A DNA stretch of 64,000 nucleotides from an uncultured Alphaproteobacteria bacterium (GTDB lineage: Bacteria > Pseudomonadota > Alphaproteobacteria > HIMB59 > GCA-002718135). The DNA lies in contig CACJEE010000002.1 in the NCBI GenBank assembly GCA_902592345.1, positions 37,749 through 101,748 of the forward strand. The letters run 5' to 3'. Each line of letters starts with the position of its first letter. Positions within the stretch are counted from its first letter, which is position 1. The translations under genes and the position numbers were made by a program. Of the stretch, positions 38,011-55,924 are shown piece by piece. The notes under the pieces were generated by a model, which searched no databases, was not told the DNA's origin, and worked only from the letters and a program-made list of their open reading frames with translations.

Positions 38011-38673
38011 ATGTTTGGATTAAAAAGTAGCTCTTTATTTAGTGATACAAAAAAACTTGAGCGAGAAATTGATGGGTTTGTTGATATTCTCTCGGAGGTT
38101 GGCTTAGTATTTAAAAATATTGTTCCAACTTATCTTAGCCATTCTGCGAACGGTAAATTTGATGAAATGGTTGAAAAAGTTAAAGAAATGGAGAGTAAAG
38201 CAGATAAAATTACCAAAGAAGTGGAACACACCTTATATGAGGAAACACTCATCCCTGATGCACGAAGTGATGTGTTACGTCTTCTCGAGCATATGGATGA
38301 ATTAATTGGTATGTACCAAGGGAATTGTTATCACTTCTCTATTCAAAAACCAAATTTTCCAAAAGAGTTTCATCAAGATCTTATCGAATTAACAGAAACA
38401 GTTGTTAATTGTGTAGAAGCTTTATGCTTAACAGTACGTTCGTTTTTCCGTGATATTAAAAGTGTGCGTGATAACGGACATAAAGTTACCTTTTATGAAA
38501 AAGAATCAGATATAAAATTTAGTGCCTTAGCACGAAGAATTTTTGATTCCGAACTTCCTTTAGATCAAAAAATGCATCTTCGATATTTTGTTGAAAAAAT
38601 TGATCGTATTTGTGATCAAGCAGAAGATATTGCTGATGAAGTTCAGATCTATGCAATTAAACGATCCGTTTAA
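38011..38673 (+). CDS. DUF47 / PhoU-like Pit accessory protein
   Basis: 220 aa helical protein of the type paired with PiT transporters. 6 nt upstream of the pit gene. Confidence 0.8.
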   Translation: MFGLKSSSLFSDTKKLEREIDGFVDILSEVGLVFKNIVPTYLSHSANGKFDEMVEKVKEMESKADKITKEVEHTLYEETLIPDARSDVLRLLEHMDELIGMYQGNCYHFSIQKPNFPKEFHQDLIELTETVVNCVEALCLTVRSFFRDIKSVRDNGHKVTFYEKESDIKFSALARRIFDSELPLDQKMHLRYFVEKIDRICDQAEDIADEVQIYAIKRSV

Positions 38674-38679
38674 TAACTA

Positions 38680-39732
38680 ATGGATATCTCCATCATTATT
38701 TTTCTCTTAGGTGGATTATTTCTTGGGTGGTCTTTGGGGGCAAATGATGCGGCAAATGTTTTTGGAACAGCAGTTGGAACACGAATGGTGCAATTTAAAA
38801 CTGCTGCTATTGTGTGTAGTATTTTTATTATACTCGGTGCTATCATTAGCGGGGCTGGAACAACTGAAACTTTAGGTAAGTTAGGTTCCATCAATGCGCT
38901 GCCTGGTGCTTTTGCTGCTTGTGTTGCTGCAGGAATATCTGTGTACATCATGACAAAAGCTGGTTTACCTGTATCCACAACTCAAGCTATTGTTGGTGCT
39001 ATTGTTGGATGGAATTTATACACGGGATCAGCAACTAATATAAAAGTTCTCATTACAATTTTAGGAACGTGGGTATTATGTCCAGTCATTGCAGGACTAA
39101 TCGCCATGGGCTTTTTTACCCTAACAAAAAATTTTATTTTAAAGAGAAAATTACATATTCTAAGACTAGATGCATATACACGAACAGCTCTTTTATTAGC
39201 AGGTGCTTTTGGTGCATACAGTTTAGGGGCGAACAATATTGCTAATGTGATGGGTGTATTTGTTCCTATATCACCGTTTACAGATATTTCCATTTCTAGT
39301 TTTTTTGTTTTTAGCTCGAAGGAGCAATTATTTTTACTTGGGGGATTAGCTATTGCGGTTGGAGTTTTTACCTATTCTAAAAAAGTTATGTTCACTGTGG
39401 GTAATGATTTATTAAAGATGTCACCTGTTGCCGCTTTTATTGTTGTTATTTCGCACTCTATAGTTTTATTTTTATTTGCCTCTCAGGGTATTAGTAATTT
39501 TTTGCAGTCAATTAATTTACCTTCTATTCCCTTGGTTCCCGTTTCAAGCTCACAGGCTGTTGTCGGTGCTGTGATTGGAATTGGTCTATTAAAAGGAGGA
39601 AAAGAAGTGCAGTGGTCTATAGCAGGGAAAATTACAATTGGTTGGTTTATACTGCCAATTATTGCAGCACTAATTTCGATTTTTTTACTGTTTATTCTTA
39701 AAAATATTTTTAACTTAAGTGTTTTTATTTAA
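38680..39732 (+). CDS. pit: Inorganic phosphate transporter, PiT family
   Basis: Canonical GANDAANVFGTAVGT and GANNIANVMG repeats, 350 aa polytopic. Confidence 0.9.
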   Translation: MDISIIIFLLGGLFLGWSLGANDAANVFGTAVGTRMVQFKTAAIVCSIFIILGAIISGAGTTETLGKLGSINALPGAFAACVAAGISVYIMTKAGLPVSTTQAIVGAIVGWNLYTGSATNIKVLITILGTWVLCPVIAGLIAMGFFTLTKNFILKRKLHILRLDAYTRTALLLAGAFGAYSLGANNIANVMGVFVPISPFTDISISSFFVFSSKEQLFLLGGLAIAVGVFTYSKKVMFTVGNDLLKMSPVAAFIVVISHSIVLFLFASQGISNFLQSINLPSIPLVPVSSSQAVVGAVIGIGLLKGGKEVQWSIAGKITIGWFILPIIAALISIFLLFILKNIFNLSVFI

Positions 39733-40252
39733 TTCTATTATAATTTAAAATAAATTTTTCCTGTTCCTCTGTTTCAATTGCACCTTTTCTTTTTGCTCTA
39801 ACTATTTCTATTGCTTTTTTATTATCTTCACCAAATTCAATCAATAGAATGGCGGCGATGGTTCCTGAGCGTCCTTTTCCACCCATACAATGAATAACTA
39901 TATTTTTTCCCTCTATTAAATCATTTTTTAATAATACTTTTGTTGTTTCCCATTTTTCATTAAATTGACGGTCGGGCGCTTTTAAATCTTCAATAGGCAT
40001 ATGTGTCCATTTTAAATTTTTAGCGTATATAGAACGAACAAAATTTTTTTTATCACACAGTTTTTCAAATTCTGAATCTTCAACTAAGCTTAAAATAGTA
40101 TTGCAGCCTAGATTATTAAAGTTATTTAAATCTTCTAAAAAAATACTTTCACTATAAGTAACTTCTGTTCCTTTTCTTCCAGGAAAACATGTAAGAAAAA
40201 TTTTTCCCTTAACATCTCTTGGTTGCACAAAGTCATACGCCAATTTATCCAT
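39725..40252 (-). CDS. Cys-based (dual-specificity/PTP-like) phosphatase
   Basis: HCX5R(S/T) loop VIHCMGGKGRSGT. 8-nt convergent overlap with pit. Confidence 0.75.
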   Translation of the reverse strand: MDKLAYDFVQPRDVKGKIFLTCFPGRKGTEVTYSESIFLEDLNNFNNLGCNTILSLVEDSEFEKLCDKKNFVRSIYAKNLKWTHMPIEDLKAPDRQFNEKWETTKVLLKNDLIEGKNIVIHCMGGKGRSGTIAAILLIEFGEDNKKAIEIVRAKRKGAIETEEQEKFILNYNRIK

Positions 40253-44287: not shown

Positions 44288-44314
44288 GGGGATGTTTACA
44301 TCCCCATTTTTTTT
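44288..44314 (+). terminator. Rho-independent terminator after the SBP gene
   Basis: GGGGATG-TTTA-CATCCCC followed by A+T8. Confidence 0.8.
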
Positions 44315-44317
44315 ACA

Positions 44318-45160
44318 ATGAGTGAAACTGGAATTTTTTTACTAATCCTTTTTGCAGCATTACTTCATGCTAGTTGGAATATAATAATTAAATCAATTAC
44401 GGACTCTCAAGTAGCAATGTCCTGGAAAATGCTAATTCAAAGCATAGTATTCTTTCCCATTTTATTTTTTGTGCCTATTCCTGAAGGTATAACCTGGTTT
44501 TATTTAATTTTATCGCTTCTATTACATAGTACTTATTTTTTAATTTTAGGAAGCATGTATAATAAAGGAGATATAACTATAATTTATCCTGTCTTTAGAG
44601 GTTTTGCGCCTGTTTTTGTTACAATCTTATCAGTTATTTTTTTACAAGATTATATAAGCATAAAAGGTTTCATTGGAATAAGCATTGTTGTTTTTGGATT
44701 ACTTTTATTAACAAGGGAAAATTATAAAAATAAATTAAATATCAAACTTCTAATTATTTCTTTATTTGTATCCATTATAATTGCCCTCTATACTTTTACA
44801 GATGGAGCAGGAGTAAGAAGTTCTGCTAATGCATTTAGTTTTATTGTATGGAATTTTTTTTTAGGTGGCTGGCTTACTATTAGTTACGTTTATTTAACAA
44901 ACAAAAGTGGTTTATTTAAATTAAAATTAAACCAATTTGTACTAATAACAATTGCTTCTGTTATGTCTTTTACTGCTTATGGTATAATTATATGGAGTAT
45001 GAATCATCAACCAATTGCTTACGTATCTTCTATTAGAGAGTCTAGTATAATTATGGCGTCATTAATTAGTTTTATATTCCTGGGTGAAAAAATTAGGAAA
45101 ATTAGACTAATCTCAGCAGTAATATTTTTCGTTGGTGTTTATTTTATATTTAATTCTTAA
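44318..45160 (+). CDS. EamA/DMT-family transporter (paralog 1)
   Basis: 280 aa, 10 TM. Collinear with the partial ORF at 63164 (PIAYVSSIRESSII). Confidence 0.8.
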   Translation: MSETGIFLLILFAALLHASWNIIIKSITDSQVAMSWKMLIQSIVFFPILFFVPIPEGITWFYLILSLLLHSTYFLILGSMYNKGDITIIYPVFRGFAPVFVTILSVIFLQDYISIKGFIGISIVVFGLLLLTRENYKNKLNIKLLIISLFVSIIIALYTFTDGAGVRSSANAFSFIVWNFFLGGWLTISYVYLTNKSGLFKLKLNQFVLITIASVMSFTAYGIIIWSMNHQPIAYVSSIRESSIIMASLISFIFLGEKIRKIRLISAVIFFVGVYFIFNS

Positions 45161-45169
45161 ATTATTTTA

Positions 45170-45727
45170 CTAAGAATTTGCTTGGAACGAATTTTCTACA
45201 TACTTTCGAAAATGCTCAACTGAAGGTGTTTTTTTATTTAATATTTTTGCCTGATCATCAAGGCGTCTCATTTCCACCGCTTCTTTCATTTGTGGTTTAT
45301 TAATAAATTCTTCCGCTTCTTGTTTAGAAAAAATACCACCTTGCACTTTTAAAGATATTTTTGATGCTCCTGATAATTCATCATAATATCCGTCTTCAAC
45401 TGCTGCAAGATATCGCTTTGATGCAACGTGTGCTCTAATCGGGAGTGTTACCTCTTCCCCAAAATATTTTGATAAGTAATCCGCTCCTAAATCTTCATGA
45501 ACACCATCTTTTCCTTGGTGAATGGGATCATTATCTTCATATAAAAGATGACCAATATCATGAAGCAAAGCTGCTGTTATAAAAGCATCTGATTTACCAT
45601 GTTGCTCTGCTAATTCCGCGCATTGAAGGGCGTGCTCTAATTGTGTTACAGCCTCATTGCCGTATTGAATATCGGAACCTTTTTTTTCTAATAATTCAAG
45701 TAAGTAGTTAACAATGTTATCTGACAT
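45170..45727 (-). CDS. phnZ: HD-domain diiron oxygenase, PhnZ-like
   Basis: 185 aa. YGNEAVTQLEHALQCA...LLHDIGH...HVASKRYL closely parallels the PhnZ sequence as recalled (YIGEAINQLEHSLQCA...LLHDLGH...HVAAKRYL). Confidence 0.72.
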   Translation of the reverse strand: MSDNIVNYLLELLEKKGSDIQYGNEAVTQLEHALQCAELAEQHGKSDAFITAALLHDIGHLLYEDNDPIHQGKDGVHEDLGADYLSKYFGEEVTLPIRAHVASKRYLAAVEDGYYDELSGASKISLKVQGGIFSKQEAEEFINKPQMKEAVEMRRLDDQAKILNKKTPSVEHFRKYVENSFQANS

Positions 45728-45886: not shown

Positions 45887-46651
45887 ATGAAATTAAAAAA
45901 TAAAAATGTAATTATTACAGGTGGTGCTTCGGGGATAGGAAAAGCAACTGCAGAATTATTTTGTAATGAAGGCGCAAAAGTTGCGATCATGGATATTAAT
46001 AAAGCTGAGGGAGAAAAGACAGTTAGTCAAATTAATTCAAATAATGAAAAGGCATTTTTCTTTCACACTGATTTAAGAAAATCTAGTGAAGTCAAAAAAT
46101 CAATTAATCAAATTTTAGATTTATTTGGAACACTCAATATTTTGTTTAACCATGCAGGAACAATAATAGTTAAGCCACTTCATGAATCTTCTGAAGAAGA
46201 TTATGATTATTTGATGGATATTAACGTTAGATCAGCCTTTCTTGTTTGCAATGAAGTAATTCCCTCAATGTTAAAAAATAAAGGGGGAAATATAATTATT
46301 ACTTCATCAATTGGAGGAGAAAAAGGCTTTGCTTTAGAATCCTTATACTGCATGACGAAGGGGGCTGTTTTACAATTAGCTAGATCAATTGCTGTTGAAT
46401 ATAGAGATCAGGGAATTAGATGTAATGCAATCTGTCCAGGATTTGTTAAAACTAATCACGGATTGAGAGAAATAAAAGAATTAGATGAGCAAGGACAAAA
46501 TTGGGATGAAAAAGATTTGCATTCTGTTCAGGGAAGAATATGTAAACCAGAAGAGATTGCTTCTGCGGTTTTATACTTAGCGTCTGATGATTCTAGTTTT
46601 GTTAATGGAACTGCTTTGTATGTTGATAATGGTTGGTATGCTAAAGGATAA
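45887..46651 (+). CDS. Classical short-chain dehydrogenase/reductase
   Basis: TGGASGIGKA, NHAG, S...YCMTK. 3 nt upstream of the ABC ATPase. Confidence 0.9.
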   Translation: MKLKNKNVIITGGASGIGKATAELFCNEGAKVAIMDINKAEGEKTVSQINSNNEKAFFFHTDLRKSSEVKKSINQILDLFGTLNILFNHAGTIIVKPLHESSEEDYDYLMDINVRSAFLVCNEVIPSMLKNKGGNIIITSSIGGEKGFALESLYCMTKGAVLQLARSIAVEYRDQGIRCNAICPGFVKTNHGLREIKELDEQGQNWDEKDLHSVQGRICKPEEIASAVLYLASDDSSFVNGTALYVDNGWYAKG

Positions 46652-46654
46652 CAA

Positions 46655-47665
46655 ATGAGTCTCTCACCTAAACTTATTTGTAAAAATGTTTGGAAATTAT
46701 ATGGAGATAATCCAAAAGAATTTTTAAAAAGTCACAATAATAATCCTGATAAAGAAATAATAAAAAAAAGTGGTTACATTCAAGCAATTCGAAATGCCTC
46801 ATTAGAAGTTTATGAAAATGAAATTCTAGTAATAATGGGTCTAAGTGGTTCAGGAAAATCTACTTTGGTTAGATGTATGTCAAGATTAGTTGATCCTACA
46901 ATAGGAGAAATTTTTTTTGAAAATATTGATATGGGAAAGTTATCAAAAAATGAATTAATAGAAATTAGAAGACATAAAATGGGTATGGTGTTCCAACACT
47001 TTGCACTTTTTCCTCACCGAACTGTTATAGAAAATATTGCTTTTCCTTTAGAAGTTCAAGGGATCAAAAGAAAAGAAAGAGAAAAGTCTGCTTTAGAAAT
47101 AATTGATCTAGTAGGATTACAAGGAAGAGAGAATTATTTTCCAAAAGAACTTTCGGGAGGTCAACAACAAAGAGTTGGTATAGGTCGTTCATTAGCTGTT
47201 AAACCAGAGTTATGGTTTTTAGATGAACCATTTTCTGCCTTAGACCCACTAATAAGGAAAGAGATGCAAAATGAGTTTTTAAAAATTCAAAACTCACTTA
47301 AAAAAACTATTATTTTTATAACTCATGATTTTGATGAAGCGATTAAATTAGCAGATAGAATCATTATTATGAATGAAGGAAGAATAGTGCAAATTGGAAG
47401 CCCTGAAGATTTAATTATGAAGCCTGCAGATGATTATGTAAAAGAATTTACTGAAGACCTTCCAAGAGAGAGGTTGTTATCTGTAAAAAGTATAATGGAC
47501 ACTAAAAAAGAGCCTAATAATTCTTCAACAGTTTATGAGGATGAAAAAATATTTTCAATTCTTGAAAAAGTTCTCTCTGAGGGTTCTGTTTCAGTTCTTG
47601 ATAAATCAAATAATATTATTGGCTCACTTAATAAAGAAACAGTCTCAAAATTTATTAATAATTAA
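46655..47665 (+). CDS. proV: Glycine betaine/quaternary-amine type ABC ATPase
   Basis: GLSGSGKST, LSGGQQQR, WFLDEP. Short CBS-like C-terminus. Confidence 0.85.
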   Translation: MSLSPKLICKNVWKLYGDNPKEFLKSHNNNPDKEIIKKSGYIQAIRNASLEVYENEILVIMGLSGSGKSTLVRCMSRLVDPTIGEIFFENIDMGKLSKNELIEIRRHKMGMVFQHFALFPHRTVIENIAFPLEVQGIKRKEREKSALEIIDLVGLQGRENYFPKELSGGQQQRVGIGRSLAVKPELWFLDEPFSALDPLIRKEMQNEFLKIQNSLKKTIIFITHDFDEAIKLADRIIIMNEGRIVQIGSPEDLIMKPADDYVKEFTEDLPRERLLSVKSIMDTKKEPNNSSTVYEDEKIFSILEKVLSEGSVSVLDKSNNIIGSLNKETVSKFINN

Positions 47666-47727
47666 ATATTATATAAATAATCTTTATACTTTTATAAAAA
47701 AATCTAAGAGCTATTGTGCGTTTTTAG

Positions 47728-47753
47728 TAGTTTTATTTAATAGTTTTATTTAA
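47728..47753. repeat. Perfect tandem duplication of 13 bp (tagttttatttaa x2)
   Basis: Read directly in the 119-bp proV-proX spacer. Confidence 0.9.
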
Positions 47754-47784
47754 TATTTTGTAAAATTTATTACTGGGAGGTACA

Positions 47785-48732
47785 ATGAAAATTCTTAAAA
47801 ATAAATTTAATATATTATTAAGTTTTATTTTTATTCTATTTGCACAAAATATATATGCAGTAGAATCAAAAGATCCAATTAAGCTAACTTTGCATGATTG
47901 GACAGGTCAATTGATTACAACTAATATTATGGCTGAAGTTCTTAAGGAAGCAGGCTACAATATAGAACTTGTTCCGGCAGATTATATTGCACAATTTGCA
48001 GGTCTTCAGACAGGCGATCTTCATGTAGCAATGGAAATGTGGGAAACAACTGGTCGTGATGCAATCGATGAGTATACTGCTGACGGAAGAGTAGTCAATG
48101 TAGGTAGTACAGGAATGGATGCAATAGAAGAATGGTGGTATCCTTCTTACATGAAAGAAAAATGTCCTGGACTTCCAAATTGGGAAGCTCTTAATGATTG
48201 TGCAGAAGCTTTTTCTACACCTGAAACATCTCCAAAAGGAAGATATTTGGGTGGACCAGTAACTTGGGGTGGTTATGATGATGAACGTGTTGAAGCGCTT
48301 GAGTTAGATTGGGAAGTAATTCATGCAGGAACCGATGGTGCTCTTTTTGGTGAATTAGAGTCTGCTTATCAGAGAAAAGCTCCAATAATGTTATGGGTTT
48401 ATGCTCCTCATTGGGCTCCATCAAAGTATGATGGAGAATTTGTAGAATTTCCACCATACACGACTGAGTGTTATACAGATCCGTCTTGGGGTATAAATAA
48501 AAATGCTGCTTATGATTGTGGTAAACCGAGAGGTCCTATTTGGAAAGTTGCTTCAAGCATGCTTAAAGATAAATGGCCAGGTGCTTACGATGCAGTAGAA
48601 GCATTTACACTTGATAGTAATGAAATGGGAAATCTGGTTGCAGCTGTTGATCTTGATGGCAATACTGTAGAAGCTGTTGTCGCAGAATGGATGGCTAACA
48701 ATAAAGATAGATGGGGTACTTGGATAAAATAA
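47785..48732 (+). CDS. proX: Glycine betaine-type (OpuAC/ProX family) substrate-binding protein
   Basis: Signal peptide. LTLHDWTGQLITTNIMAEVLKEAGY and EMWETTG. Trp-rich. Confidence 0.85.
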   Translation: MKILKNKFNILLSFIFILFAQNIYAVESKDPIKLTLHDWTGQLITTNIMAEVLKEAGYNIELVPADYIAQFAGLQTGDLHVAMEMWETTGRDAIDEYTADGRVVNVGSTGMDAIEEWWYPSYMKEKCPGLPNWEALNDCAEAFSTPETSPKGRYLGGPVTWGGYDDERVEALELDWEVIHAGTDGALFGELESAYQRKAPIMLWVYAPHWAPSKYDGEFVEFPPYTTECYTDPSWGINKNAAYDCGKPRGPIWKVASSMLKDKWPGAYDAVEAFTLDSNEMGNLVAAVDLDGNTVEAVVAEWMANNKDRWGTWIK

Positions 48733-48753
48733 CCCTTTAATCTTAATTTTTTA

Positions 48754-48781
48754 GGGGGATTTATATCCCCCTTCTTATTTT
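48754..48781 (+). terminator. Intra-operon hairpin/terminator between proX and proW
   Basis: GGGGGAT-TTAT-ATCCCCC followed by TTCTTATTTT. Confidence 0.75.
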
Positions 48782-48786
48782 ACAAT

Positions 48787-50775
48787 ATGCAGAAAAAAAA
48801 ATTATCAAACAAAATTATTTTTATTTCTCTAACTGTCTTAACTTTTTTTTTGTATTGGTATGGCAAAGAAATAGCAAACTACTTAGATAGTAAATGGCTA
48901 GTAAAGTATCCAAAGCATTATTCATTTCCTTTTGCAATTTATACTTCAACATTTGTTAAATGGTTAATTAATGATGCTAATTTTTGGCTATTTACTTTTA
49001 ATGATCTTACTCGTTTCTTTGCTTGGATTATAGAACAGCCTTACAATATAGTTTTAGCTATATTTTCTAAAGGAATATTAAAAGGACAAGGTCAAGATGC
49101 GATCCAAATCATGGAACCATTAAGTTGGATTTCAGTTGTTGGTATTTTTTTTACCCTTGCGCTTTATACAAGAGATAAGTTTTTAATAATACTTGTTGTT
49201 CTATCAATAGTTTATTTGGCTGTATTTGATCAATGGCAAAGTTCAATGATTACATTATCTTCAATAATTATTGCTGTACCAATTGGAGTTGTTCTAGGAA
49301 TATTATTAGGAATATTATCCTACAAGTCGAAAATTTTAGAAAAAATTATAACTCCAATATTAGACCTAATGCAAACAGTCCCGGTCTTTGCTTACTTAGT
49401 TCCCATACTTGTAATGTTTGGTTTTGGGCCAGTTTCTGCATTAATTGCAACCATAATATATGCAATGCCACCAATGGTGAGAACTACCCTTTTAGCACTT
49501 AACAGTATTGATCCACAATTAAAAGAGAGTGGGCTCATGTCTGGTTGCACAGAAAGACAATTAATGTGGAAGGTTCTGATTCCAGTATCTAAACCAACTT
49601 TACTTATAGGCGTCAATCAAGTGATTATGCTATCACTTAATATGGTTATCATAGCTTCTATGATAGGCGCAGGGGGATTAGGTTACGACGTATTGGCCTC
49701 TCTTAGAAGATTAGATATTGGAGGAGGTATAGAGTCAGGTATAGCTATCGTAGTTATAGCAATAGCTTTAGATCGCTTGAGTCAATCATTTGCAAACTTA
49801 CCCACTCTCTCAAAAAAAACACAGAAAACTTTTTTTACTAAATATAAAAAAATAATTTTCTTAATTTTTTATATAATTGGAATTTATATATTAGGTAATT
49901 TTTTTACTTTTTTTAAATTATTCCCTGAAGAGTTAATGATTAATACTTCATTATTTTGGGAAGAACTAGTTAAATATATAAATATAAATTATTTTGATAA
50001 TCTAGAGAGTTTCAAAATAACTCTATTAACTTTTTTCATGCTTCCAATAAAAAAATTCTTTTTAGGAATTCCCTGGCCATGGTTTATTTTTATTATTACA
50101 ATTATTGGATGGTATTTTGGAAAGACTAAATTAGCATTACTTTGTTTAATGATGTCAATTTTTATAGTGACAACTGGTCTTTGGGAAAAAGCGATGATTA
50201 CACTTTATTTATGTGGTTCAAGTGTAATAATAGCATCTATTATAGGAATTCCTCTAGGGATATGGGCAGGCTTAAGCAGCAGGGCAAATAAAATATTAAC
50301 TGCTTTTATTGATACTCTTCAAACTTTACCAAGTTTTGTTTACTTGATACCTGTTGTAATGCTATTTCGTGTAGGTGACTTTACAGCAATGATTGCTGTT
50401 ATACTTTATGCACTTGCTCCTGCTGTTAGATATACAGCTCATGGAGTAAAAAATATTAATAATCAAATTGTGGAGGCAGCGTTAATAAGTGGATGTTCTC
50501 AAAGACAGTTATTATTTAAAATTAGATTACCTTTAGCCTTGCCAGAAATTTTACTAGGTATTAACCAAACTATAATGCTTGCTTTATCTATGTTAGTTAT
50601 TACTGCATTAGTTGGAACTAGAGATCTTGGTCAAGAAGTTTACATAGGTTTAACTAAAGCAGATATAGGAAGAGGTTTGGTTGCCGGACTATGTGTAGCT
50701 TTTATATCTATAATTGCAGATAGAATAATTAAAGCTGGAAGCAATAATCTTAAAAATAAATATGGAATCAAATAA
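48787..50775 (+). CDS. proW: Fused tandem-duplicated betaine-type ABC permease
   Basis: 662 aa. Two homologous halves, each with DxxQTxPxFVYLxP and an EAA-like loop (SGCTERQLMWKV / SGCSQRQLLFKI). Confidence 0.85.
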   Translation: MQKKKLSNKIIFISLTVLTFFLYWYGKEIANYLDSKWLVKYPKHYSFPFAIYTSTFVKWLINDANFWLFTFNDLTRFFAWIIEQPYNIVLAIFSKGILKGQGQDAIQIMEPLSWISVVGIFFTLALYTRDKFLIILVVLSIVYLAVFDQWQSSMITLSSIIIAVPIGVVLGILLGILSYKSKILEKIITPILDLMQTVPVFAYLVPILVMFGFGPVSALIATIIYAMPPMVRTTLLALNSIDPQLKESGLMSGCTERQLMWKVLIPVSKPTLLIGVNQVIMLSLNMVIIASMIGAGGLGYDVLASLRRLDIGGGIESGIAIVVIAIALDRLSQSFANLPTLSKKTQKTFFTKYKKIIFLIFYIIGIYILGNFFTFFKLFPEELMINTSLFWEELVKYININYFDNLESFKITLLTFFMLPIKKFFLGIPWPWFIFIITIIGWYFGKTKLALLCLMMSIFIVTTGLWEKAMITLYLCGSSVIIASIIGIPLGIWAGLSSRANKILTAFIDTLQTLPSFVYLIPVVMLFRVGDFTAMIAVILYALAPAVRYTAHGVKNINNQIVEAALISGCSQRQLLFKIRLPLALPEILLGINQTIMLALSMLVITALVGTRDLGQEVYIGLTKADIGRGLVAGLCVAFISIIADRIIKAGSNNLKNKYGIK

Positions 50776-50796
50776 ATATTACTTTATTTGATCAAT

Positions 50797-51894
50797 ATGG
50801 ATAAAAAGTTATTAACTCCCGGACCTCTTACTACTTCACTGAGCACTAAAGAGGCAATGCTTCATGATTGGGGATCACGTGATCAAAAATTCATCGATCT
50901 AAATCAATCTATTCGTGACTCATTAATTAAGTTAATTGATGGGGAAGGCAATTATCAATGTGTGCCTATGCAAGGAAGTGGAACATTTGCTGTTGAATCG
51001 ATGATTAGTTCACTAACACCAAAAGATGCTAACATTTTAATTTTAATTAATGGTGCTTACGGTCAACGAATGAAAAAAATGTGTGCGTACTTAAATAGAA
51101 ATATGATTGACTATGAAGTAGCTGAACATGAGCCTCATAATATGAGTAAATTAGAAGAGATTATTGATGCTAATAAGCAGCTTACTCACGTTTTTGCTGT
51201 TTATTGTGAAACTACATCAGGAATCCTAAACCCTATCAATGATATTGCTGATTTAGTTAAGAAAAAAAACTTATCTTTATTTATAGATGCGATGAGTGCC
51301 TTTGGTGCTCTTCCTCTTAGTAGTAAAGATATTACTTTTGATGCTGTTGCAGCTTCATCTAATAAATGTTTAGAGGGCGTTCCTGGTGTTGGATTTATTT
51401 TAATGAAAAATAATGTGATTGAAAAAGCAAAAGGGAACTGTCATTCATTAAGTTTGGATTTGTATGATCAATGGACAGCAATGGAGCAAAATAAACAATG
51501 GCGCTTTACACCACCTACACATGTATTAGCCGCATTCAATCAAGCAATTACTGAACATCAAAATGAAGGTGGAATTGAAGGGCGACACAAAAGATATAAA
51601 AATAATTGTAAAATCATATGTGATGGAATGAAAGAGATTGGCTTTGAACAACTCTTACCTGATGAGTTGCAAGCACCAATTATCATAACTTTTAAACAAC
51701 CAAGTGATCCAAACTTTAATTTTCAAAAATTTTACAATGCTCTTAGTGATAAAGATTTTCTAATTTATCCTGGAAAATTAACTGTCGCTGATACTTTTCG
51801 TATTGGATGTATTGGTAATTTAAATGAACAAGATATGAGAGATACACTTACAGCTGTTAAAGAGGTAATCAACGATTTAAAGATAAGTTTATGA
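50797..51894 (+). CDS. phnW: 2-aminoethylphosphonate-pyruvate transaminase
   Basis: Class V aminotransferase with PhnW-like N-terminus KLLTPGPLTTSLSTKEAMLHDWGSRD. ATG 50797 preferred over TTG 50788. Confidence 0.87.
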   Translation: MDKKLLTPGPLTTSLSTKEAMLHDWGSRDQKFIDLNQSIRDSLIKLIDGEGNYQCVPMQGSGTFAVESMISSLTPKDANILILINGAYGQRMKKMCAYLNRNMIDYEVAEHEPHNMSKLEEIIDANKQLTHVFAVYCETTSGILNPINDIADLVKKKNLSLFIDAMSAFGALPLSSKDITFDAVAASSNKCLEGVPGVGFILMKNNVIEKAKGNCHSLSLDLYDQWTAMEQNKQWRFTPPTHVLAAFNQAITEHQNEGGIEGRHKRYKNNCKIICDGMKEIGFEQLLPDELQAPIIITFKQPSDPNFNFQKFYNALSDKDFLIYPGKLTVADTFRIGCIGNLNEQDMRDTLTAVKEVINDLKISL

Positions 51895-52529
51895 GTAGTT
51901 CAGATGCGGTTGAAATTCCTTTAATTAAAGCTACCAATGAAGCACTTAAAGGGTATGGGTATTTAATCGACTCATATGAAAATAATGATATTGAAATTGT
52001 CACTTGGCCCAAACAGGGTTGGCGTGAAATTGATGAAGGTACAGGCAATGAAGGTGGGAGTACAGAGGGATCTTTCGATGCTTGGTGGGAAGGAAGTACA
52101 CTGTTCGGACAAAATAATGCTGTTCAACATAACAGCGACTATGAAGTAGACGGAAAATACATACTTGGTCATTCCTTACCCCCTGATAGTGAAGCTACAA
52201 CAAAATACATACCGCCAAAAAATATTTATATTTGGCATGTTAATTATCATCCTGATGGTGGACAGCTTTTTTATCCATCAACAAAAAGTCCTTTTATTTC
52301 ACCTTTAGCCTTACCAGGAGATGATGTGCAAGTTGGTGATTTTAAAGCTTTTTATTTTGATGGTTCGCAAGGGTTATACATTCATCCTAACATATGGCAT
52401 GAAGGAGTTTTCCCAATCGAAGAAAAATGCTCTTTTCAGGGTCGGCAAGGCAAAGTGCATGCAAGAGTGAGTATTGATTTACAAAAAGAATTTAAGAAAT
52501 ATATTTTTTTTAAAACTTCTTTAAAATAA
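51891..52529 (+). CDS. Cupin-fold protein, ureidoglycolate lyase (AllA)-like
   Basis: HPDGGQLFYP and NIWHEG motifs resemble the AllA family. ATGA overlap with the phnW stop. Confidence 0.55.
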   Translation: MSSSDAVEIPLIKATNEALKGYGYLIDSYENNDIEIVTWPKQGWREIDEGTGNEGGSTEGSFDAWWEGSTLFGQNNAVQHNSDYEVDGKYILGHSLPPDSEATTKYIPPKNIYIWHVNYHPDGGQLFYPSTKSPFISPLALPGDDVQVGDFKAFYFDGSQGLYIHPNIWHEGVFPIEEKCSFQGRQGKVHARVSIDLQKEFKKYIFFKTSLK

Positions 52530-52533: not shown

Positions 52534-53640
52534 TTATTTTTTTTCAATAACAAAAATTTCATTATTAAAATAAAGACCTTTGTTTTTAGTAACTATTTTT
52601 TGTACAACATCTTCGTAATTTTTAGATTTTTCCACTTTCATCACTTTATCATCATCTATTTGATTAACATAAATAGATGCATTCCAAGCTGAAAATATTA
52701 AAGAGGTTGCTATGCTCCCACTTAGTTCATTGGGTAAAGCTCTAAGCTTACATTTAATAATCTTTTTATCTTTAAAATTTAATTTAGCTAATAAATTTTT
52801 ATCTAAATTTTTTTTCAAATAGTGAATTATAGAATTGCTTAATGAAGGAAATGGATTTTCTTTTGGCCAGATTTTTTTTATAATTTTATTAGCTGGATCA
52901 TTCCCTGAGGCGTGAATAGTTAATAATTTCCCTTTAGGTTTTAGAGCATCAATCATAGGGCGTATGACATATTTTACTTTTTTTTCTGCTGAAATTCTTG
53001 ATCTATAAGGTTGTGAAGCAATTATTAGATCAAATTTATTTGCACCATTATTTATTCTGGGAATTAATTCATGCACATTAAATTCTTGATCTTCTCTATA
53101 TATAATCATTACTGATGGCTCTTTATAAGTTGGATTGCCATTTTTTTTATTAATTTCAATATTCCATTTTTTTTCTAAAAAAGAATTTTGACTTCTTAAT
53201 TGTTCTGCAAAATCAAGTGAGGTATCTCCTTTAAGCTTAACAACATGCCAATTAATCTTCTTCTGTTTTGTGGGATTATTAGATTTTAGATTTGCTGCTT
53301 CTGCATAATGCAGGTTTGATATAACAAATACTGTATTTTTGTGTTCAACAAATCTATCTGGTAATTTTTCTAAACCAAGTCTTACATCCTCTATACTAAT
53401 TTCCTTTGTAGAAACAAAAAGAGGTATATTTGGTTTTGCTTCATGACATTGTCTCATTACATTCATTAATAATGATCCGTCACCCATGCCTGCATCAAAT
53501 ATTTTAATGCCAGGTTTTGTTGGTTTAATTTTATTTATGTGAGGACGAATGAAATCAGCAATCTGATTTTTTTCATTAGTTGTTGTAACAAACAGCAAAT
53601 ATTTTTGCCTGTTATCATAAAATCTAAAATTTTTTTTCAT
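52534..53640 (-). CDS. Class I SAM-dependent methyltransferase-like protein, unknown substrate
   Basis: Motif I IFDAGMGDGS and an acidic post-I region. Last gene of the 55838->52534 operon. Confidence 0.6.
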   Translation of the reverse strand: MKKNFRFYDNRQKYLLFVTTTNEKNQIADFIRPHINKIKPTKPGIKIFDAGMGDGSLLMNVMRQCHEAKPNIPLFVSTKEISIEDVRLGLEKLPDRFVEHKNTVFVISNLHYAEAANLKSNNPTKQKKINWHVVKLKGDTSLDFAEQLRSQNSFLEKKWNIEINKKNGNPTYKEPSVMIIYREDQEFNVHELIPRINNGANKFDLIIASQPYRSRISAEKKVKYVIRPMIDALKPKGKLLTIHASGNDPANKIIKKIWPKENPFPSLSNSIIHYLKKNLDKNLLAKLNFKDKKIIKCKLRALPNELSGSIATSLIFSAWNASIYVNQIDDDKVMKVEKSKNYEDVVQKIVTKNKGLYFNNEIFVIEKK

Positions 53641-53641: not shown

Positions 53642-54754
53642 CTAAAACAATCCCATTAGTTTAGCAGACGAGATAAAAGCATCTTTATTCCCAATAAAAT
53701 TTTTACCTCTTTCACCTAAGAAAGCATCATCTACAATATTATTCCACTCTTGAACAGGAACTTTTATTTCATTTAAGTTTAATGGAACTTCCAAAGAGCG
53801 CATAAATTCACTTAATTTTAAAGATGAATTTTCTAAATTATCATTAAAGATTAATTGTAATCTTTCTTCAGCAATTTTATCTATTCCAATCATGCTTCTA
53901 GTAACAATCGGAAGGGTAAATGAACAAGCAATACCATGTTGAATACCATAATTTAGAGTAATTGGATAAGACAAGTTATGAGCAATAGCAGTTTTAGTAT
54001 TTGAAAATGCTAATCCTGCATGCACACATGCACGCGCAATATTAGCACGTAATTCAATATTTTTTAAATCTTTTGCTAGTAATGGTAAATTTTCTAAAAC
54101 CAATTTTGATGCTTGAATTGCATGTGATGCTGAAACTGGATTAGCGTTAACATTCCATATACTCTCCATCGAGTGTGACAATGCATCTAAACCAGTTGAA
54201 ATTGTAAGACCAAGAGGTTTGTCAATCATAATTGACGGATCAATAATTGCTTTTTCTGCGTAAAGTGTTTTATGTGCTAAAGAAAGTTTGTTATTTTTTT
54301 CTTTATCCCAGATTGTAGCCCAACAAGTAAGTTCACTAGACGTGCCAGATGTCGTAGGAACAGCAATAATTTTAATAGGATTTTCAACTTTCGGATTTTT
54401 TTTATTTCTTACAAAATCAGTTAAGTATTCCTGTTTATCTCTAAAAGCAGCAATGGCTTTTGCTGTATCCGTTACAGAACCTCCACCAATAGCTAAAATA
54501 TAATCAACAGTTTTATCAATTGAGGCAAATTTATTTTGAAGTTCTAATATATCTTTATAGTCTGGGTTAGGTTGAACATCTGTCATAATAGACAGTGGTG
54601 GATTAGAGGAAGAACTCAATTCATCACTATATTTTTTAAAAATTTCTTCTGGGTGAGTAATAATTATATAGGATTTATTTTTAAGTGCTGAATGTACTTC
54701 TTTAAATTTATTTTCACCAAATATAATCTCTACCGGATTATAGTAACTCCACAT
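53642..54754 (-). CDS. Iron-containing alcohol dehydrogenase, phosphonate-associated type (putative phosphonoacetaldehyde reductase / 2-HEP dehydrogenase)
   Basis: MWSYYNPVEIIFG start, GGGSVTD, Fe-ADH His cluster (LSHSMES, AHNLSYP). Confidence 0.78.
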   Translation of the reverse strand: MWSYYNPVEIIFGENKFKEVHSALKNKSYIIITHPEEIFKKYSDELSSSSNPPLSIMTDVQPNPDYKDILELQNKFASIDKTVDYILAIGGGSVTDTAKAIAAFRDKQEYLTDFVRNKKNPKVENPIKIIAVPTTSGTSSELTCWATIWDKEKNNKLSLAHKTLYAEKAIIDPSIMIDKPLGLTISTGLDALSHSMESIWNVNANPVSASHAIQASKLVLENLPLLAKDLKNIELRANIARACVHAGLAFSNTKTAIAHNLSYPITLNYGIQHGIACSFTLPIVTRSMIGIDKIAEERLQLIFNDNLENSSLKLSEFMRSLEVPLNLNEIKVPVQEWNNIVDDAFLGERGKNFIGNKDAFISSAKLMGLF

Positions 54755-54758: not shown

Positions 54759-55838
54759 TTAAATTGATTTTGCAGCTTTTGACAAAATTGTCATTTTTTC
54801 AATTGCTTGCTCTCTTGTAAAGAATCCTAAACCACAATCTGGGGCAGCAATTAAACGATGCTCATCAATATGTTCTAAAGAGTCTTTCATTCGAGTTCTC
54901 ACTTCCTCTACAGACTCCATTCTGCTTTTAGCAATATCAATAAATCCAAAAATAACTTTTGTTTTTTTAAATTTTTCTAAAAGATTTAAATCATTATGTC
55001 TGTGAGAGTCTTCTAGAGATACTTCATCAATAGTAGAGTCATCAACTAAAGTAGCAATTCTATCATATGCATCTAAGTCTGCTTTTTTATATCCTTCAGA
55101 GTCAAGACAGTTTGGATAACCACAACAGATGTGACAAACCCTTTGCACATCTTTAGGGATTCCGTGCATCATTCTCTCTAAGTTCTCCATGCCATATGTA
55201 TTAGCTTCTTCTGGTTTTCTTGCAAAAACCGGTTCATCAATTTGAATATATTTACAACCAGCATCAACGAGTGCTTTTATTTCTTCGTTTAGAGCTAATG
55301 CTAAATCAAAACCCAGTTTTTTAAGATCATCATAATAGTTGTTTGCAATTGAGTCGGTTATTGTCATAGGACCAGGAAGAGTAATCTTTACCGGATTTTT
55401 AGTAAATTGTTGAGCGCTTTTCCAGTCTAATGGCATGCGTATCTCTTTACTTGAAACTGGACCAATTATTGTTGGAACACTTGCTTCAAAAGCTCCTTGT
55501 CTTACTGACTTATGAGTTACTTCTTCAAAGCTTATATTATTTAGAAAACGACATTGGTGAAAAACATAACTTTCTCTTCTTACTTCCCCATCTGTTGGTA
55601 TATCAATACCGGCATTAACTTGATCTATTATAACTTCTTTAATTGCATCTAAAAATAAGTTTTCTACATCATCACCAGCTTTCTCTATTGCTTTTTCGTA
55701 GGCACCAGGTGACCAATTTGCCAATAATCCTTTAGCAGCTTTTTTTTCTTCTTCAGATTTAGTACCTAAAAACCAATCATTAATAGGAGTATTTTTTGGT
55801 TTTGGATAAGCGCCGATGGTAGTTGTAATTAGAGGCAT
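54759..55838 (-). CDS. Core MetE-like (cobalamin-independent methionine synthase C-terminal domain) zinc methyltransferase
   Basis: 359 aa single (beta/alpha)8 domain. Zinc-ligand pattern CHICC ... LED ... PDCGL is intact. Confidence 0.78.
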   Translation of the reverse strand: MPLITTTIGAYPKPKNTPINDWFLGTKSEEEKKAAKGLLANWSPGAYEKAIEKAGDDVENLFLDAIKEVIIDQVNAGIDIPTDGEVRRESYVFHQCRFLNNISFEEVTHKSVRQGAFEASVPTIIGPVSSKEIRMPLDWKSAQQFTKNPVKITLPGPMTITDSIANNYYDDLKKLGFDLALALNEEIKALVDAGCKYIQIDEPVFARKPEEANTYGMENLERMMHGIPKDVQRVCHICCGYPNCLDSEGYKKADLDAYDRIATLVDDSTIDEVSLEDSHRHNDLNLLEKFKKTKVIFGFIDIAKSRMESVEEVRTRMKDSLEHIDEHRLIAAPDCGLGFFTREQAIEKMTILSKAAKSI

Positions 55839-55862
55839 AATATATTCTCCGTTGATTCTTAC

Positions 55863-55893
55863 AAATAAAACAGCGGCTTTTATAAAGCCGCTG
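55863..55893 (-). terminator. Strong hairpin + U-tract between the SBP gene and the MetE-like gene
   Basis: Minus strand: CAGCGGCTTT-ATA-AAAGCCGCTG followed by TTTTATTT. Confidence 0.8.
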
Positions 55894-55924
55894 CAATAAA
55901 ATGTTAATAATTAATCAATCTTTT

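What the first reader, a model, noticed from the sequence alone, without database searches (positions are those of the whole stretch)
45170..45727. Orphan PhnZ-like HD oxygenase without a PhnY*/TmpA-type hydroxylase partner
The protein parallels PhnZ almost motif for motif. That includes the Y-x-x-E pair ahead of the first His (YGNEAVTQLEH), which in PhnZ contacts the substrate and the amino group as I recall. In known pathways, a 2OG/Fe(II) dioxygenase (PhnY* or TmpA) encoded next door makes the 1-hydroxy-phosphonate substrate for PhnZ/TmpB-type enzymes. No such gene is present in the 18 kb to the right or the 9 kb to the left. Its neighbours are a DMT transporter (convergent) and a divergently transcribed SDR + betaine-type importer operon. 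Three explanations are possible: 1-hydroxy-2-aminoethylphosphonate (or an N-methylated analogue) is imported ready-made, another enzyme here generates the hydroxylated substrate, or the partner lies elsewhere.
Basis: partly seen in the sequence, partly recalled or inferred. Interest (0 to 1): 0.7.

Follow-up and report, generated by a model that had tools for sequence, protein, structure and literature searches.

The report
Lone PhnZ oxygenase in SAR11 phosphonate island
This is a real PhnZ-type iron oxygenase gene in a marine SAR11 bacterium that never has its usual hydroxylase partner next door, but it sits inside a larger phosphonate-degradation gene island, and this "lone PhnZ" layout has already been described in other bacteria.

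Summary
Window 45170-45727 (minus strand) encodes a 185-aa PhnZ/TmpB-family HD-domain oxygenase with all six iron ligands and the YxxE loop. No TauD- or PhyH-type hydroxylase was found in the 64-kb window or in about 110 related SAR11 loci. As a control, 77 of 80 PhnY*-type loci from other phyla have a PhnZ gene directly adjacent.

"Orphan" is misleading, though. The conserved SAR11 core is PhnZ divergent from phnW plus an AllA-like cupin gene. The SDR and betaine-type importer are a rare inserted cassette.

Lone phnZ in phnWAY clusters is published (Zangelmi 2021: 24 of 75 clusters, never together with pbfA). It is read there as a branch for ready-made (R)-1-hydroxy-2-aminoethylphosphonate, and that is my best explanation (about 0.55, untested).

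Two things are new. The SAR11 enzyme forms its own clade, 38-39% identical to both PhnZ and TmpB. The AllA-like cupin also follows tmpA-tmpB in Roseobacter-group and Rhizobiales genomes.

Verdict: a new member of a known kind, of moderate interest.

The parts
45170..45727 (-). PhnZ-like HD-domain diiron oxygenase (185 aa), the finding itself
   Evidence: TIGR03276 206.9 bits. PDB TmpB and PhnZ at E 1e-33. Ligands H32, H56, D57, H77, H100, D157 and Y22/E25 are conserved. Metatranscriptome contigs cover 45251-45689.
50788..51894 (+). PhnW, 2-aminoethylphosphonate:pyruvate transaminase. In most SAR11 relatives it is the gene directly divergent from PhnZ.
   Evidence: NF010006 520.7 bits (cut-off 296) and TIGR02326 478.7 bits. 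Synteny.
51891..52529 (+). AllA (ureidoglycolate lyase)-like cupin, 212 aa ('UGLl'). Its start overlaps the phnW stop by 4 nt. Function unknown.
   Evidence: Pfam PF04115 42.8 bits. Profile versus PDB AllA 1xsr at E 3e-10. The AF2 model's top Foldseek hits are AllA structures. It follows phnW in SAR11 and follows tmpA-tmpB in 7 non-SAR11 loci.
52534..53640 (-). Conserved hypothetical protein, 368 aa, with a SAM-methyltransferase-like DAGMGDG motif ('MTl'). Present in nearly all SAR11 versions of the island.
   Evidence: No Pfam or NCBIfam hit. 4678 homologues, unnamed. The AF2 model is unusable, pLDDT 47.
57319..58758 (-). PhnY, phosphonoacetaldehyde dehydrogenase (not the dioxygenase PhnY*)
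   Evidence: TIGR03250 792.2 bits, cut-off 635.65.
58758..59999 (-). PhnA, phosphonoacetate hydrolase
   Evidence: TIGR02335 468 bits, cut-off 407.55.
53642..54754 (-). PhpC-type (Fe-ADH family, pf00465) alcohol dehydrogenase, probably a 2-hydroxyethylphosphonate dehydrogenase
   Evidence: TIGR03405 365.7 bits, below its cut-off of 423.7. Pfam Fe-ADH. The function of degradative PhpC homologues is described in PMC13576164.
40273..44264 (.). PhnU2 (40273-41976, -), PhnT2 (41985-43058, -) and PhnS2 (43158-44264, +): a 2-AEP-type ABC importer
   Evidence: TIGR03262 762.9 bits, TIGR03265 488.2 bits and TIGR03261 408 bits, all above their cut-offs. PhnS2 is strongly represented in metatranscriptome contigs.
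44318..45160 (+). EamA/DMT membrane protein, convergent with PhnZ
   Evidence: Pfam EamA. TIGR03340 phn_DUF6 151.7 bits, below its cut-off of 288.
45887..50775 (+). Inserted cassette: SDR oxidoreductase (45887-46651), ProV-type ATPase (46655-47665), OpuAC-type binding protein (47785-48732) and fused ProW-type permease (48787-50775)
   Evidence: The cassette is present only in the window, L011, L012, L085 and L086, and is absent between PhnZ and phnW in the other SAR11 loci.
54759..57178 (-). Optional cassette: MetE-like protein (54759-55838) and a UgpB-like binding protein (55925-57178)
   Evidence: Pfam Meth_synt_2 and SBP_bac_8. Present in many but not all SAR11 loci.
38011..40252 (.). Conserved left border of the island: PhoU_div (38011-38673, +), PHO4/Pit-type phosphate transporter (38680-39732, +) and a DSP/PTP-like phosphatase (39725-40252, -)
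   Evidence: Pfam. These lie directly beside PhnZ in most SAR11 loci.

Best explanation
The gene encodes a stand-alone PhnZ-type mixed-valent Fe(II)/Fe(III) HD-domain oxygenase. It works as an accessory branch of a SAR11 phosphonate-scavenging island.

Inferred mechanism, by homology with PhnZ and TmpB. The C1-hydroxyl and phosphonate of an (R)-1-hydroxy-2-aminoethylphosphonate-type substrate bind Fe1. Tyr22 of the YxxE loop leaves Fe2 and Glu25 swings in to contact the amino group. O2 binds Fe2 and abstracts the C1 hydrogen. The C-P bond is then cleaved, giving phosphate plus glycine.

The enzyme does not depend on a hydroxylase. Already-hydroxylated phosphonate (R-HAEP) from the environment enters through the island's importers and is cleaved directly. 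In parallel, AEP goes PhnW -> PhnY -> PhnA, and 2-hydroxyethylphosphonate enters through the PhpC-type dehydrogenase. PhnZ would thus fill the role that the lyase PbfA fills in other phnWAY clusters.

Shown here: family membership, conserved catalytic residues, conserved gene context, absence of a local hydroxylase, and presence of the gene in metatranscriptome contigs. Inferred: the substrate, the products and the cofactor state.
For: Family and active site:
- E 1.7e-61 to TIGR03276 and full-length matches to solved TmpB and PhnZ.
- H32, H56, D57, H77, H100, D157, H60, K104, R105, S122, Q129, R154 and K161 are invariant or nearly so across 144 family sequences. Y22 and E25 are present. Q29 and C36 match PhnZ rather than TmpB, which has M and G there.

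Context:
- PhnW, PhnY, PhnA and PhnS2T2U2 all score above curated cut-offs.
- 74 of 80 SAR11 loci have phnW next to PhnZ. The six without it are cut by a contig end or by the 10-kb limit.

No hydroxylase:
- Pfam scan of the window.
- TauD and PhyH HMMs against six-frame ORFs of the window and L001-L117 gave only one weak PhyH-like hit, in L117, which lacks PhnZ.
- None of the 80 best PhnY*-type loci in GTDB species genomes is from SAR11.
- Control: 77 of 80 PhnY*-type loci have PhnZ adjacent, 76 of them on the same strand.

A PhnZ without a hydroxylase is a viable design: PhnZ domains occur fused to an MFS transporter (P0395) and to DUF5690 (P0370) with no dioxygenase domain.

Literature:
- 24 of 75 phnWAY clusters carry phnZ, 17 carry pbfA and none carries both. 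PhnW/PhnX process R-HAEP poorly (PMC8154272).
- GOS metagenomes show PhnZ in 9.4% of genomes against PhnY* in 1.6% (PMC3266647).
- No class-III aminotransferase (PbfA-like) was found in the window.

Expression: a near-identical 439-nt metatranscriptome contig covers the gene.
Against: No biochemical data exist for this clade. It is only 38% identical to PhnZ and 39% to TmpB, and it falls below the curated cut-offs of all three NCBIfam models, so its substrate could differ. How much R-HAEP occurs in seawater is unknown. Only +/-8-10 kb was inspected in relatives, so a hydroxylase elsewhere in the genome is not excluded. Three conserved neighbours of unknown function (the AllA-like cupin, MTl and, in this strain, the SDR) could supply or alter the substrate. 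Contigs from metatranscriptomes can contain DNA carry-over.
Confidence: 0.55

Rival explanations
1. A different substrate. The SAR11 clade cleaves another 1-hydroxyphosphonate, such as hydroxymethylphosphonate (like G. maris PhnZ1), 1,2-dihydroxyethylphosphonate (giving glycolate), or 1-hydroxy-2-(trimethylammonio)ethylphosphonate taken up by the betaine-type importer (giving glycine betaine).
For: The clade is equidistant from PhnZ (38%) and TmpB (39%) and branches separately in the family tree. It scores 162 and 161 bits against the PhnZ1 and TmpB models. In this window an OpuAC/ProVW importer is divergently adjacent. Published PhnZ homologues differ in specificity (PMC10574752, PMC8316502).
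Against: The scores are far below the 300-bit cut-offs for PhnZ1 and TmpB. Q29 and C36 match PhnZ, not TmpB. The betaine-type cassette is absent from most SAR11 loci that keep the enzyme. E25, which contacts the amino group in PhnZ and TmpB, is retained.
Confidence: 0.17
2. An unconventional local partner. A conserved neighbour makes or conditions the 1-hydroxy substrate. Candidates are the AllA-like cupin co-translated with PhnW, the MTl protein, or in this strain the SDR (for example as a redox racemase analogous to PbfF).
For: PhnZ, phnW, the cupin gene and MTl travel together in essentially all SAR11 loci. The same cupin family directly follows tmpA-tmpB in 7 loci from Leisingera, Ruegeria, Amylibacter, Hoeflea and Rhizobiaceae. 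It sits beside phnW or phnS2T2U2 in other phyla. Aminotran_5, TauD and HD are among its most recurrent neighbours. There is a precedent for an NAD-dependent HAEP racemase (PMC12366243).
Against: The cupin's fold and motifs are those of a lyase (AllA), not a 2OG or PhyH hydroxylase. It also occurs without any PhnZ (L117, L119, L127, L156) and in unrelated contexts, with 128 neighbour families. It is absent from all 80 PhnY*-PhnZ loci. The SDR is a rare insertion. PbfF belongs to another family (pf02826).
Confidence: 0.15
3. Partner elsewhere. A PhnY*- or TmpA-type hydroxylase is encoded at a distant locus, so the organism runs the classical two-step oxidative pathway on AEP.
For: Only +/-8-10 kb was examined in relatives. 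SAR11 genomes do encode other PhyH- and TauD-superfamily proteins (general knowledge, not tested here).
Against: Canonical pairs are almost always adjacent and co-oriented, in 77 of 80 loci, and are even fused. No SAR11 locus appears among the 80 best of more than 455 PhnY*-type matches. Ocean metagenomes hold several-fold more phnZ than phnY* (PMC3266647). The island already has a complete PhnW-PhnY-PhnA route for AEP.
Confidence: 0.1
4. Not an oxygenase. It is an HD-domain phosphohydrolase, or an inactive remnant.
For: HD domains are mostly hydrolases. The TIGR03276 score is marginally under its cut-off.
Against: The full six-ligand diiron motif, the YxxE loop and the invariant K104, R105, S122, Q129 and R154 are all intact. 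The gene is conserved at 70-99% identity across more than 100 SAR11 genomes. Thousands of environmental copies exist. It is present in metatranscriptome contigs.
Confidence: 0.03

Closest known systems
PhnZ of uncultured bacterium HF130_AEPn_1 (PDB 4MLM/4MLN/4N6W), (R)-1-hydroxy-2-aminoethylphosphonate dioxygenase
   Same: Same length class and HD fold. E 1.4e-32 over residues 5-184. All iron ligands and the YxxE loop are shared, and Q29 and C36 are identical.
   Different: Only 38% identical. PhnZ is encoded right next to the PhyH-type dioxygenase PhnY*, as seen in 77 of 80 such loci. The SAR11 gene never is.
TmpB of Leisingera caerulea (PDB 6NPA), (R)-1-hydroxy-2-(trimethylammonio)ethylphosphonate oxygenase
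   Same: Best PDB hit, E 1.1e-33, 39% identical. The YxxE loop and ligands are shared. tmpB is followed by the same AllA-like cupin family that accompanies the SAR11 gene.
   Different: TmpB is paired with the TauD/GBBH-type hydroxylase TmpA. NF049941 scores 161 bits against a 300-bit cut-off. TmpB has M and G where the SAR11 protein and PhnZ have Q29 and C36.
Lone phnZ genes inside phnWAY / phnWX clusters (Zangelmi et al. 2021, PMC8154272, Table 1)
   Same: The same architecture: PhnW, PhnY and PhnA plus phnZ, with no PhnY* and no pbfA. It is read as a separate outlet for R-HAEP.
   Different: That survey covered complete genomes of cultured bacteria. The SAR11 clade, its invariant cupin and MTl neighbours, and its divergent phnZ/phnW promoter region were not described there.
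[quoted passage not shown]
   Same: Probably the same physiological role: widening a PhnW-based cluster to take R-HAEP. It is mutually exclusive with phnZ in clusters (PMC8154272).
   Different: An unrelated PLP enzyme. It is O2-independent and yields phosphonoacetaldehyde plus ammonia rather than glycine plus phosphate. It is absent from this window.
GmPhnZ1 / Prochlorococcus MIT9301 PhnZ (hydroxymethylphosphonate dioxygenase)
   Same: Same family. NF052439 gives E 1.1e-47.
   Different: 162 bits against a 300-bit cut-off. Those enzymes are paired with a methylphosphonate hydroxylase (PMC6581173, PMC10574752).

Membership tests
[quoted passage not shown] | Full-length sequence homology to structurally solved PhnZ and TmpB | tested here: met
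   6npa at E 1.1e-33 (residues 3-179) and 4mlm at E 1.4e-32 (residues 5-184).
[quoted passage not shown] | Six-residue diiron motif H...HD...H...H...D | tested here: met
   H32, H56-D57, H77, H100 and D157 align with columns that are invariant or nearly so in 144 family sequences.
[quoted passage not shown] | Mobile YxxE substrate-gating loop ahead of the first His (PMC8177086) | tested here: met
   Y22-G-N-E25 aligns with Y24/E27 of PhnZ and Y30/E33 of TmpB.
[quoted passage not shown] | Score at or above the curated cut-off of NCBIfam TIGR03276 | tested here: inconclusive
   206.9 bits against a cut-off of 214.6, with 175 of 179 profile positions aligned. The score is marginally below.
[quoted passage not shown] | Fe(II)/Fe(III) cofactor and O2-dependent C-P cleavage of a 1-hydroxyphosphonate | not testable with these tools
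   Needs purified protein, EPR or Mossbauer spectroscopy and activity assays.
PhnY*/PhnZ two-enzyme oxidative AEP pathway | PhyH-type 2OG/Fe(II) dioxygenase PhnY* encoded with PhnZ | tested here: not met
   No PhyH hit in the window or in SAR11 loci L001-L116. Control: the two genes are adjacent in 77 of 80 PhnY*-type loci.
TmpA/TmpB TMAEP pathway | TauD/GBBH-type hydroxylase TmpA adjacent, and TmpB equivalog score | tested here: not met
   The TauD HMM finds nothing in the window or SAR11 loci. NF049941 scores 161.3 bits against 300.
Hydroxymethylphosphonate dioxygenase PhnZ1 | Equivalog score for NF052439 and a paired methylphosphonate hydroxylase | tested here: not met
   162.1 bits against 300. 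No hydroxylase is present.
phnWAY hydrolytic AEP cluster with accessory lone phnZ (PMC8154272) | PhnW, phosphonoacetaldehyde dehydrogenase PhnY and PhnA clustered with phnZ | tested here: met
   PhnW 520.7 bits, PhnY 792.2 bits and PhnA 468 bits, all above cut-off, within 15 kb of the gene. The arrangement is conserved in SAR11.
phnWAY hydrolytic AEP cluster with accessory lone phnZ (PMC8154272) | pbfA absent when phnZ is present | tested here: met
   No class-III aminotransferase family was found among the window ORFs scanned.

The most novel reading that the evidence does not exclude
The AllA-like cupin (window 51891-52529) is an undescribed, recurrent enzyme of aminophosphonate catabolism. 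It is translationally coupled to PhnW beside PhnZ in SAR11, and it is the third gene of tmpA-tmpB operons in Roseobacter-group and Rhizobiales bacteria. By analogy with ureidoglycolate lyase, which eliminates a leaving group from a carbinol carbon to give an aldehyde, it would catalyse a new lyase step on an alpha-hydroxy- or aldehyde-bearing phosphonate. That step would feed or complement the HD oxygenase. If so, the very abundant SAR11 'phnZ' would mark a three-component pathway (PhnW / cupin / PhnZ) distinct from PhnY*Z.
Probability: 0.2. Interest if true: 0.7.

Novelty: new member of a known kind. Interest (0 to 1): 0.4.

Why it matters
Marine surveys use phnZ as a marker for 2-AEP degradation. 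One survey ranks it as the dominant route, with 45% of marine phnZ sequences coming from Pelagibacterales (PMC9381506). Another finds canonical PhnY*Z almost absent (PMC8316502), and a review notes that the two estimates cannot be reconciled (PMC10574752).

Here the SAR11 gene is consistently hydroxylase-less and sits beside a complete PhnW-PhnY-PhnA route. So in SAR11, phnZ counts probably report scavenging of pre-hydroxylated phosphonates, with glycine as a useful by-product for a glycine-requiring organism. They probably do not report AEP oxidation. This would explain the excess of phnZ over phnY* in ocean metagenomes, and it implies that (R)-HAEP-like compounds are a real component of marine dissolved organic phosphorus.

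The island also offers two conserved proteins of unknown function (the cupin and MTl) as testable candidates for new phosphonate chemistry.

Tried and rejected
- Hidden hydroxylase in the cupin: rejected. The AF2 model (pLDDT 79.5, though only one of five models was good) matched AllA lyases and generic cupins, not TauD or PhyH folds.
- Hidden hydroxylase in MTl: unresolved. The AF2 model was too poor to search (pLDDT 47), so no fold search was run.
- SDR as the published HAEP racemase PbfF: rejected. PbfF belongs to pf02826, not to the SDR family.
- Rearrangement specific to this genome: rejected. The hydroxylase is absent in about 110 SAR11 loci.
- PhnY*-type genes in SAR11: none among the 80 best of more than 455 matches.
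- Pho box or other shared motif in the roughly 95-160-nt PhnZ/phnW intergenic region: I saw only AT-rich conserved stretches and did not pursue them.
- Family tree: the NJ tree of 144 sequences is star-like. I use it only to say that the SAR11 clade is not nested in the PhnZ-HF130 or TmpB clades.
- Key structural papers were not available: Rajakovich 2019, van Staalduinen 2014 and Worsdorfer 2013. Residue roles beyond those given in PMC8177086 therefore rest on alignment only.
- One align call failed because I supplied wrong coordinates. It was repeated correctly.
Full report
**What is at the coordinates.** An ATG-to-stop ORF occupies exactly 45170..45727 on the minus strand and encodes 185 aa.
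- Pfam HD: E 5.5e-9.
- NCBIfam TIGR03276 'phosphonate degradation HD-domain oxygenase': E 1.7e-61, 206.9 bits over 175 of 179 positions, 7.7 bits under the curated cut-off.
- NCBIfam models for hydroxymethylphosphonate dioxygenase PhnZ1 and for TmpB: 162 and 161 bits, against cut-offs of 300.
- Solved structures, matched end to end: TmpB 6npa at E 1.1e-33 and PhnZ 4mlm at E 1.4e-32.

In an alignment of 144 family sequences the six iron ligands (H32, H56, D57, H77, H100, D157) fall in invariant or nearly invariant columns. H60, K104, R105, S122, Q129, R154 and K161 are also conserved, and Y22/E25 align with the YxxE loop of PhnZ and TmpB.

The window has about 30% G+C, and its relatives are all Pelagibacterales (SAR11) single-cell or metagenome-assembled genomes. 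Around the gene lies a phosphonate island:
- PhnU2, PhnT2 and PhnS2, a 2-AEP-type ABC importer, all above cut-off
- an EamA/DMT protein
- the PhnZ-like gene
- an SDR, followed by a ProV/OpuAC/ProW importer
- PhnW (520.7 bits)
- an AllA-like cupin whose start overlaps the phnW stop
- a conserved hypothetical protein ('MTl')
- a PhpC-type Fe-ADH
- a MetE-like protein and a UgpB-like binding protein
- phosphonoacetaldehyde dehydrogenase PhnY (792 bits)
- phosphonoacetate hydrolase PhnA (468 bits)

The gene is thus 'orphan' only with respect to a hydroxylase. The complete PhnW-PhnY-PhnA route for 2-AEP is present. Degradative PhpC homologues have recently been shown to oxidise 2-hydroxyethylphosphonate to phosphonoacetaldehyde (PMC13576164).

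**Is a hydroxylase really absent?** Every sizeable ORF of the 64-kb window was scanned against Pfam. The left half is housekeeping: recF, dnaN, dnaA, fpg, ubiE, coaBC, fab genes, pnp, truB, infB, nusA, lnt, phoH, miaB, trpS, murJ, znuABC and a Fur-family gene. No TauD, PhyH or 2OG-Fe(II) family appears anywhere.

I then built two HMMs. One was TauD/GBBH-type, from TmpA homologues and from TauD-PhnZ fusion proteins. The other was PhyH-type, from PhyH-PhnZ fusion proteins. Both recovered their positive controls strongly. Against six-frame ORFs of the window and 117 loci (nearly all SAR11) they gave a single weak hit. It was PhyH-like, E 2e-6, in L117, a divergent Pelagibacteraceae locus that lacks PhnZ.

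A reverse search with the PhyH domain returned Poribacteria, Planctomycetota (including Gimesia), Latescibacterota and Actinomycetota, but no SAR11 among the 80 best of more than 455 matches. In those control loci a PhnZ-family ORF lies directly adjacent in 77 of 80 cases, on the same strand in 76. Adjacency is therefore the rule for the canonical pair, and its absence in SAR11 is meaningful. A hydroxylase elsewhere in the genome cannot be formally excluded, because only +/-8-10 kb was visible.

**What is conserved around the gene.** Mapping the window's proteins onto 80 SAR11 loci found through PhnZ, and 37 found through the cupin, shows one core arrangement: PhoU_div - PHO4 - DSP-type phosphatase | PhnZ, divergent from phnW-cupin | MTl | (Fe-ADH - MetE-like - SBP, optional) | PhnY - PhnA.

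phnW is next to PhnZ in 74 of 80 loci. The other six are cut by a contig end or by the 10-kb limit. The DMT plus PhnS2T2U2 block is a second optional insertion. The enzyme's function therefore cannot depend on the SDR or the betaine-type importer, although in this strain they may widen what enters the cell.

**Where the protein sits in its family.** A full-library search found 3253 clusters (at 50% identity) with E <= 1e-3. The SAR11 form is its own cluster (P0361, 72% identical), and everything else is at most about 51% identical. It is 38% identical to PhnZ and 39% to TmpB, which are 35% identical to each other. In a poorly resolved NJ tree it branches apart from both. At two positions near the YxxE loop it matches PhnZ (Q29, C36) rather than TmpB (M, G). 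That is a hint, not a proof, of a primary-amine substrate.

Domain fusions in the family are informative:
- PhnZ fused to TauD+GBBH_N or to PhyH, the known partnerships
- PhnZ fused to an MFS transporter or to DUF5690, with no dioxygenase domain
- PhnZ fused to a Zn-ADH
- PhnZ fused to HAD hydrolases

The transporter fusions show that a PhnZ acting on an imported, ready-made substrate is a viable design.

**Comparison with the literature.** Zangelmi et al. 2021 surveyed 19,425 complete genomes. They found 75 phnWAY clusters, of which 24 carry phnZ, 17 carry pbfA and none carries both, and only 7 phnY*Z clusters. They also showed that PhnW/PhnX process (R)-HAEP poorly, and they read phnZ in such clusters as a dedicated R-HAEP outlet (PMC8154272). 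Piazza et al. 2026 draw a lone phnZ in a degradative cluster with the same reading (PMC13576164). The architecture found here is therefore a known kind.

Two things have not, as far as I could find, been stated. The first is that the very abundant SAR11 phnZ belongs to this lone class. Lockwood et al. 2022 count phnZ as the dominant 2-AEP catabolic gene, 45% of it from Pelagibacterales, without requiring phnY* (PMC9381506). Murphy et al. 2021 find canonical PhnY*Z nearly absent (PMC8316502), and a review flags the discrepancy (PMC10574752). The second is an explanation for older GOS numbers, PhnZ 9.4% against PhnY* 1.6% of genomes (PMC3266647), which fit a large hydroxylase-less population.

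**Expression.** Marine metatranscriptome assemblies contain near-identical contigs over the gene (for example 439 nt covering 45251-45689 with 2 mismatches), very abundant PhnS2, and the OpuAC-type gene. The caveat is that these are contigs, and DNA carry-over is possible.

**Most likely mechanism.** By homology, shown for the residues and inferred for the chemistry, the enzyme binds a (R)-1-hydroxy-2-aminoethylphosphonate-type substrate on Fe1. Tyr22 leaves Fe2 and Glu25 swings onto the amine. O2 is activated at Fe2, the C1 hydrogen is abstracted and the C-P bond is cleaved, giving phosphate and glycine.

In the island it runs in parallel with AEP -> PhnW -> PhnY -> PhnA and with HEP -> PhpC-type ADH -> PhnY -> PhnA. 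It fills the role PbfA fills elsewhere, with the bonus of glycine for a glycine-requiring organism (that requirement is general knowledge about SAR11, not tested here). I put this at about 0.55. The rivals are a different 1-hydroxyphosphonate substrate (0.17), an unconventional local partner (0.15), a distant canonical hydroxylase (0.10) and a non-oxygenase (0.03).

**The AllA-like cupin, a side finding.** The 212-aa protein co-translated with PhnW matches ureidoglycolate lyase by profile (E 3e-10) and shares its HPxGxQxFxP and YHxNxWH motifs. Its AF2 model hits AllA structures first. Homologues at 50-57% identity occur across many phyla.
- In seven loci (Leisingera x2, Ruegeria x2, Amylibacter, Hoeflea, Rhizobiaceae) the gene directly follows tmpA-tmpB on the same strand. 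The TmpB there is nearly identical to the 6npa sequence.
- In five others it is beside phnW.
- In one it precedes phnS2T2U2.
- Among 111 neighbouring ORFs the most recurrent families are LysR, Aminotran_5, TauD, HD and EamA. However, 128 families occur in all, including pyrimidine and hydantoin catabolic genes in Sneathiella.
- It is absent from all 80 PhnY*-PhnZ loci.

I found no paper describing it. It is a lyase-type fold, not a hydroxylase, so it does not obviously solve the 'missing partner'. It is nevertheless a good candidate for an undescribed accessory step in aminophosphonate catabolism.

**Verdict.** The interpretation needs re-framing: this is a lone PhnZ inside a conserved SAR11 phnWAY-type island. 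That is a new, uncharacterised clade of a known arrangement, with ecological relevance for how phnZ counts are read. Interest is moderate (0.40).

Noticed in passing
window 51891-52529 (+); L129, L135, L144, L147, L151, L155, L158 at about 8001-8600: An AllA (ureidoglycolate lyase)-like cupin is translationally coupled to phnW in SAR11. In Leisingera, Ruegeria, Amylibacter, Hoeflea and a Rhizobiaceae MAG it is the third gene directly after tmpA-tmpB. It also sits beside phnW or phnS2T2U2 in other phyla. I found no literature on it.
   Followed up: partly
window 52534-53640 (-): A conserved 368-aa hypothetical protein with a DAGMGDG (SAM-methyltransferase-like) motif is present in nearly every SAR11 copy of the island. 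It has no Pfam or NCBIfam match, 4678 unnamed homologues, and an AF2 model too poor to interpret (pLDDT 47).
   Followed up: partly
proteins P0370, P0395, P0398, P0378, P0484: PhnZ domains occur fused to an MFS transporter, to DUF5690, to a Zn-dependent alcohol dehydrogenase and to HAD hydrolases, in addition to the expected TauD- and PhyH-type dioxygenase fusions. This suggests further, undescribed PhnZ partnerships.
   Followed up: partly
L117:5662-6456 (-): A divergent Pelagibacteraceae locus (AG-365-F10) has PhnA, PhnY, PhnW and the cupin but no PhnZ. It carries a weak PhyH-like ORF (E 2e-6) about 1 kb downstream of the cupin gene.
   Followed up: no
window 45887-50775 and 40273-45160: The SDR plus betaine-type ABC importer, and the DMT plus PhnS2T2U2 block, behave as optional cassettes. 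They are inserted on either side of PhnZ in only a few SAR11 genomes, so the island is a hotspot of gene-content variation.
   Followed up: partly
window 43158-44264 (+): The PhnS2 binding-protein gene is by far the most represented part of the island in four marine metatranscriptome assemblies, with word depth up to about 236 against about 20 for PhnZ.
   Followed up: no
window 54759-57178 (-): A cobalamin-independent methionine-synthase-like (MetE-like) protein and a UgpB-like binding protein form an optional unit with the PhpC-type dehydrogenase between MTl and PhnY. The role of a MetE-like methyltransferase fold in a phosphonate island is unexplained.
   Followed up: no
window 36119-40252: The island's left border is a phosphate-handling block: a Pit-like protein, a SET-domain protein, PhoU_div, a PHO4-type transporter and a small dual-specificity/PTP-like phosphatase. 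In most SAR11 relatives the phosphatase gene is the immediate neighbour of PhnZ.
   Followed up: no
window 2279-5905 (-): recF, dnaN and dnaA lie here, so the window spans the chromosomal replication-origin region and the phosphonate island starts about 30 kb from dnaA.
   Followed up: no
window 32860-36069: A ZnuA/ZnuC/ZnuB-type metal ABC importer and a Fur-family regulator lie immediately left of the phosphate block.
   Followed up: no
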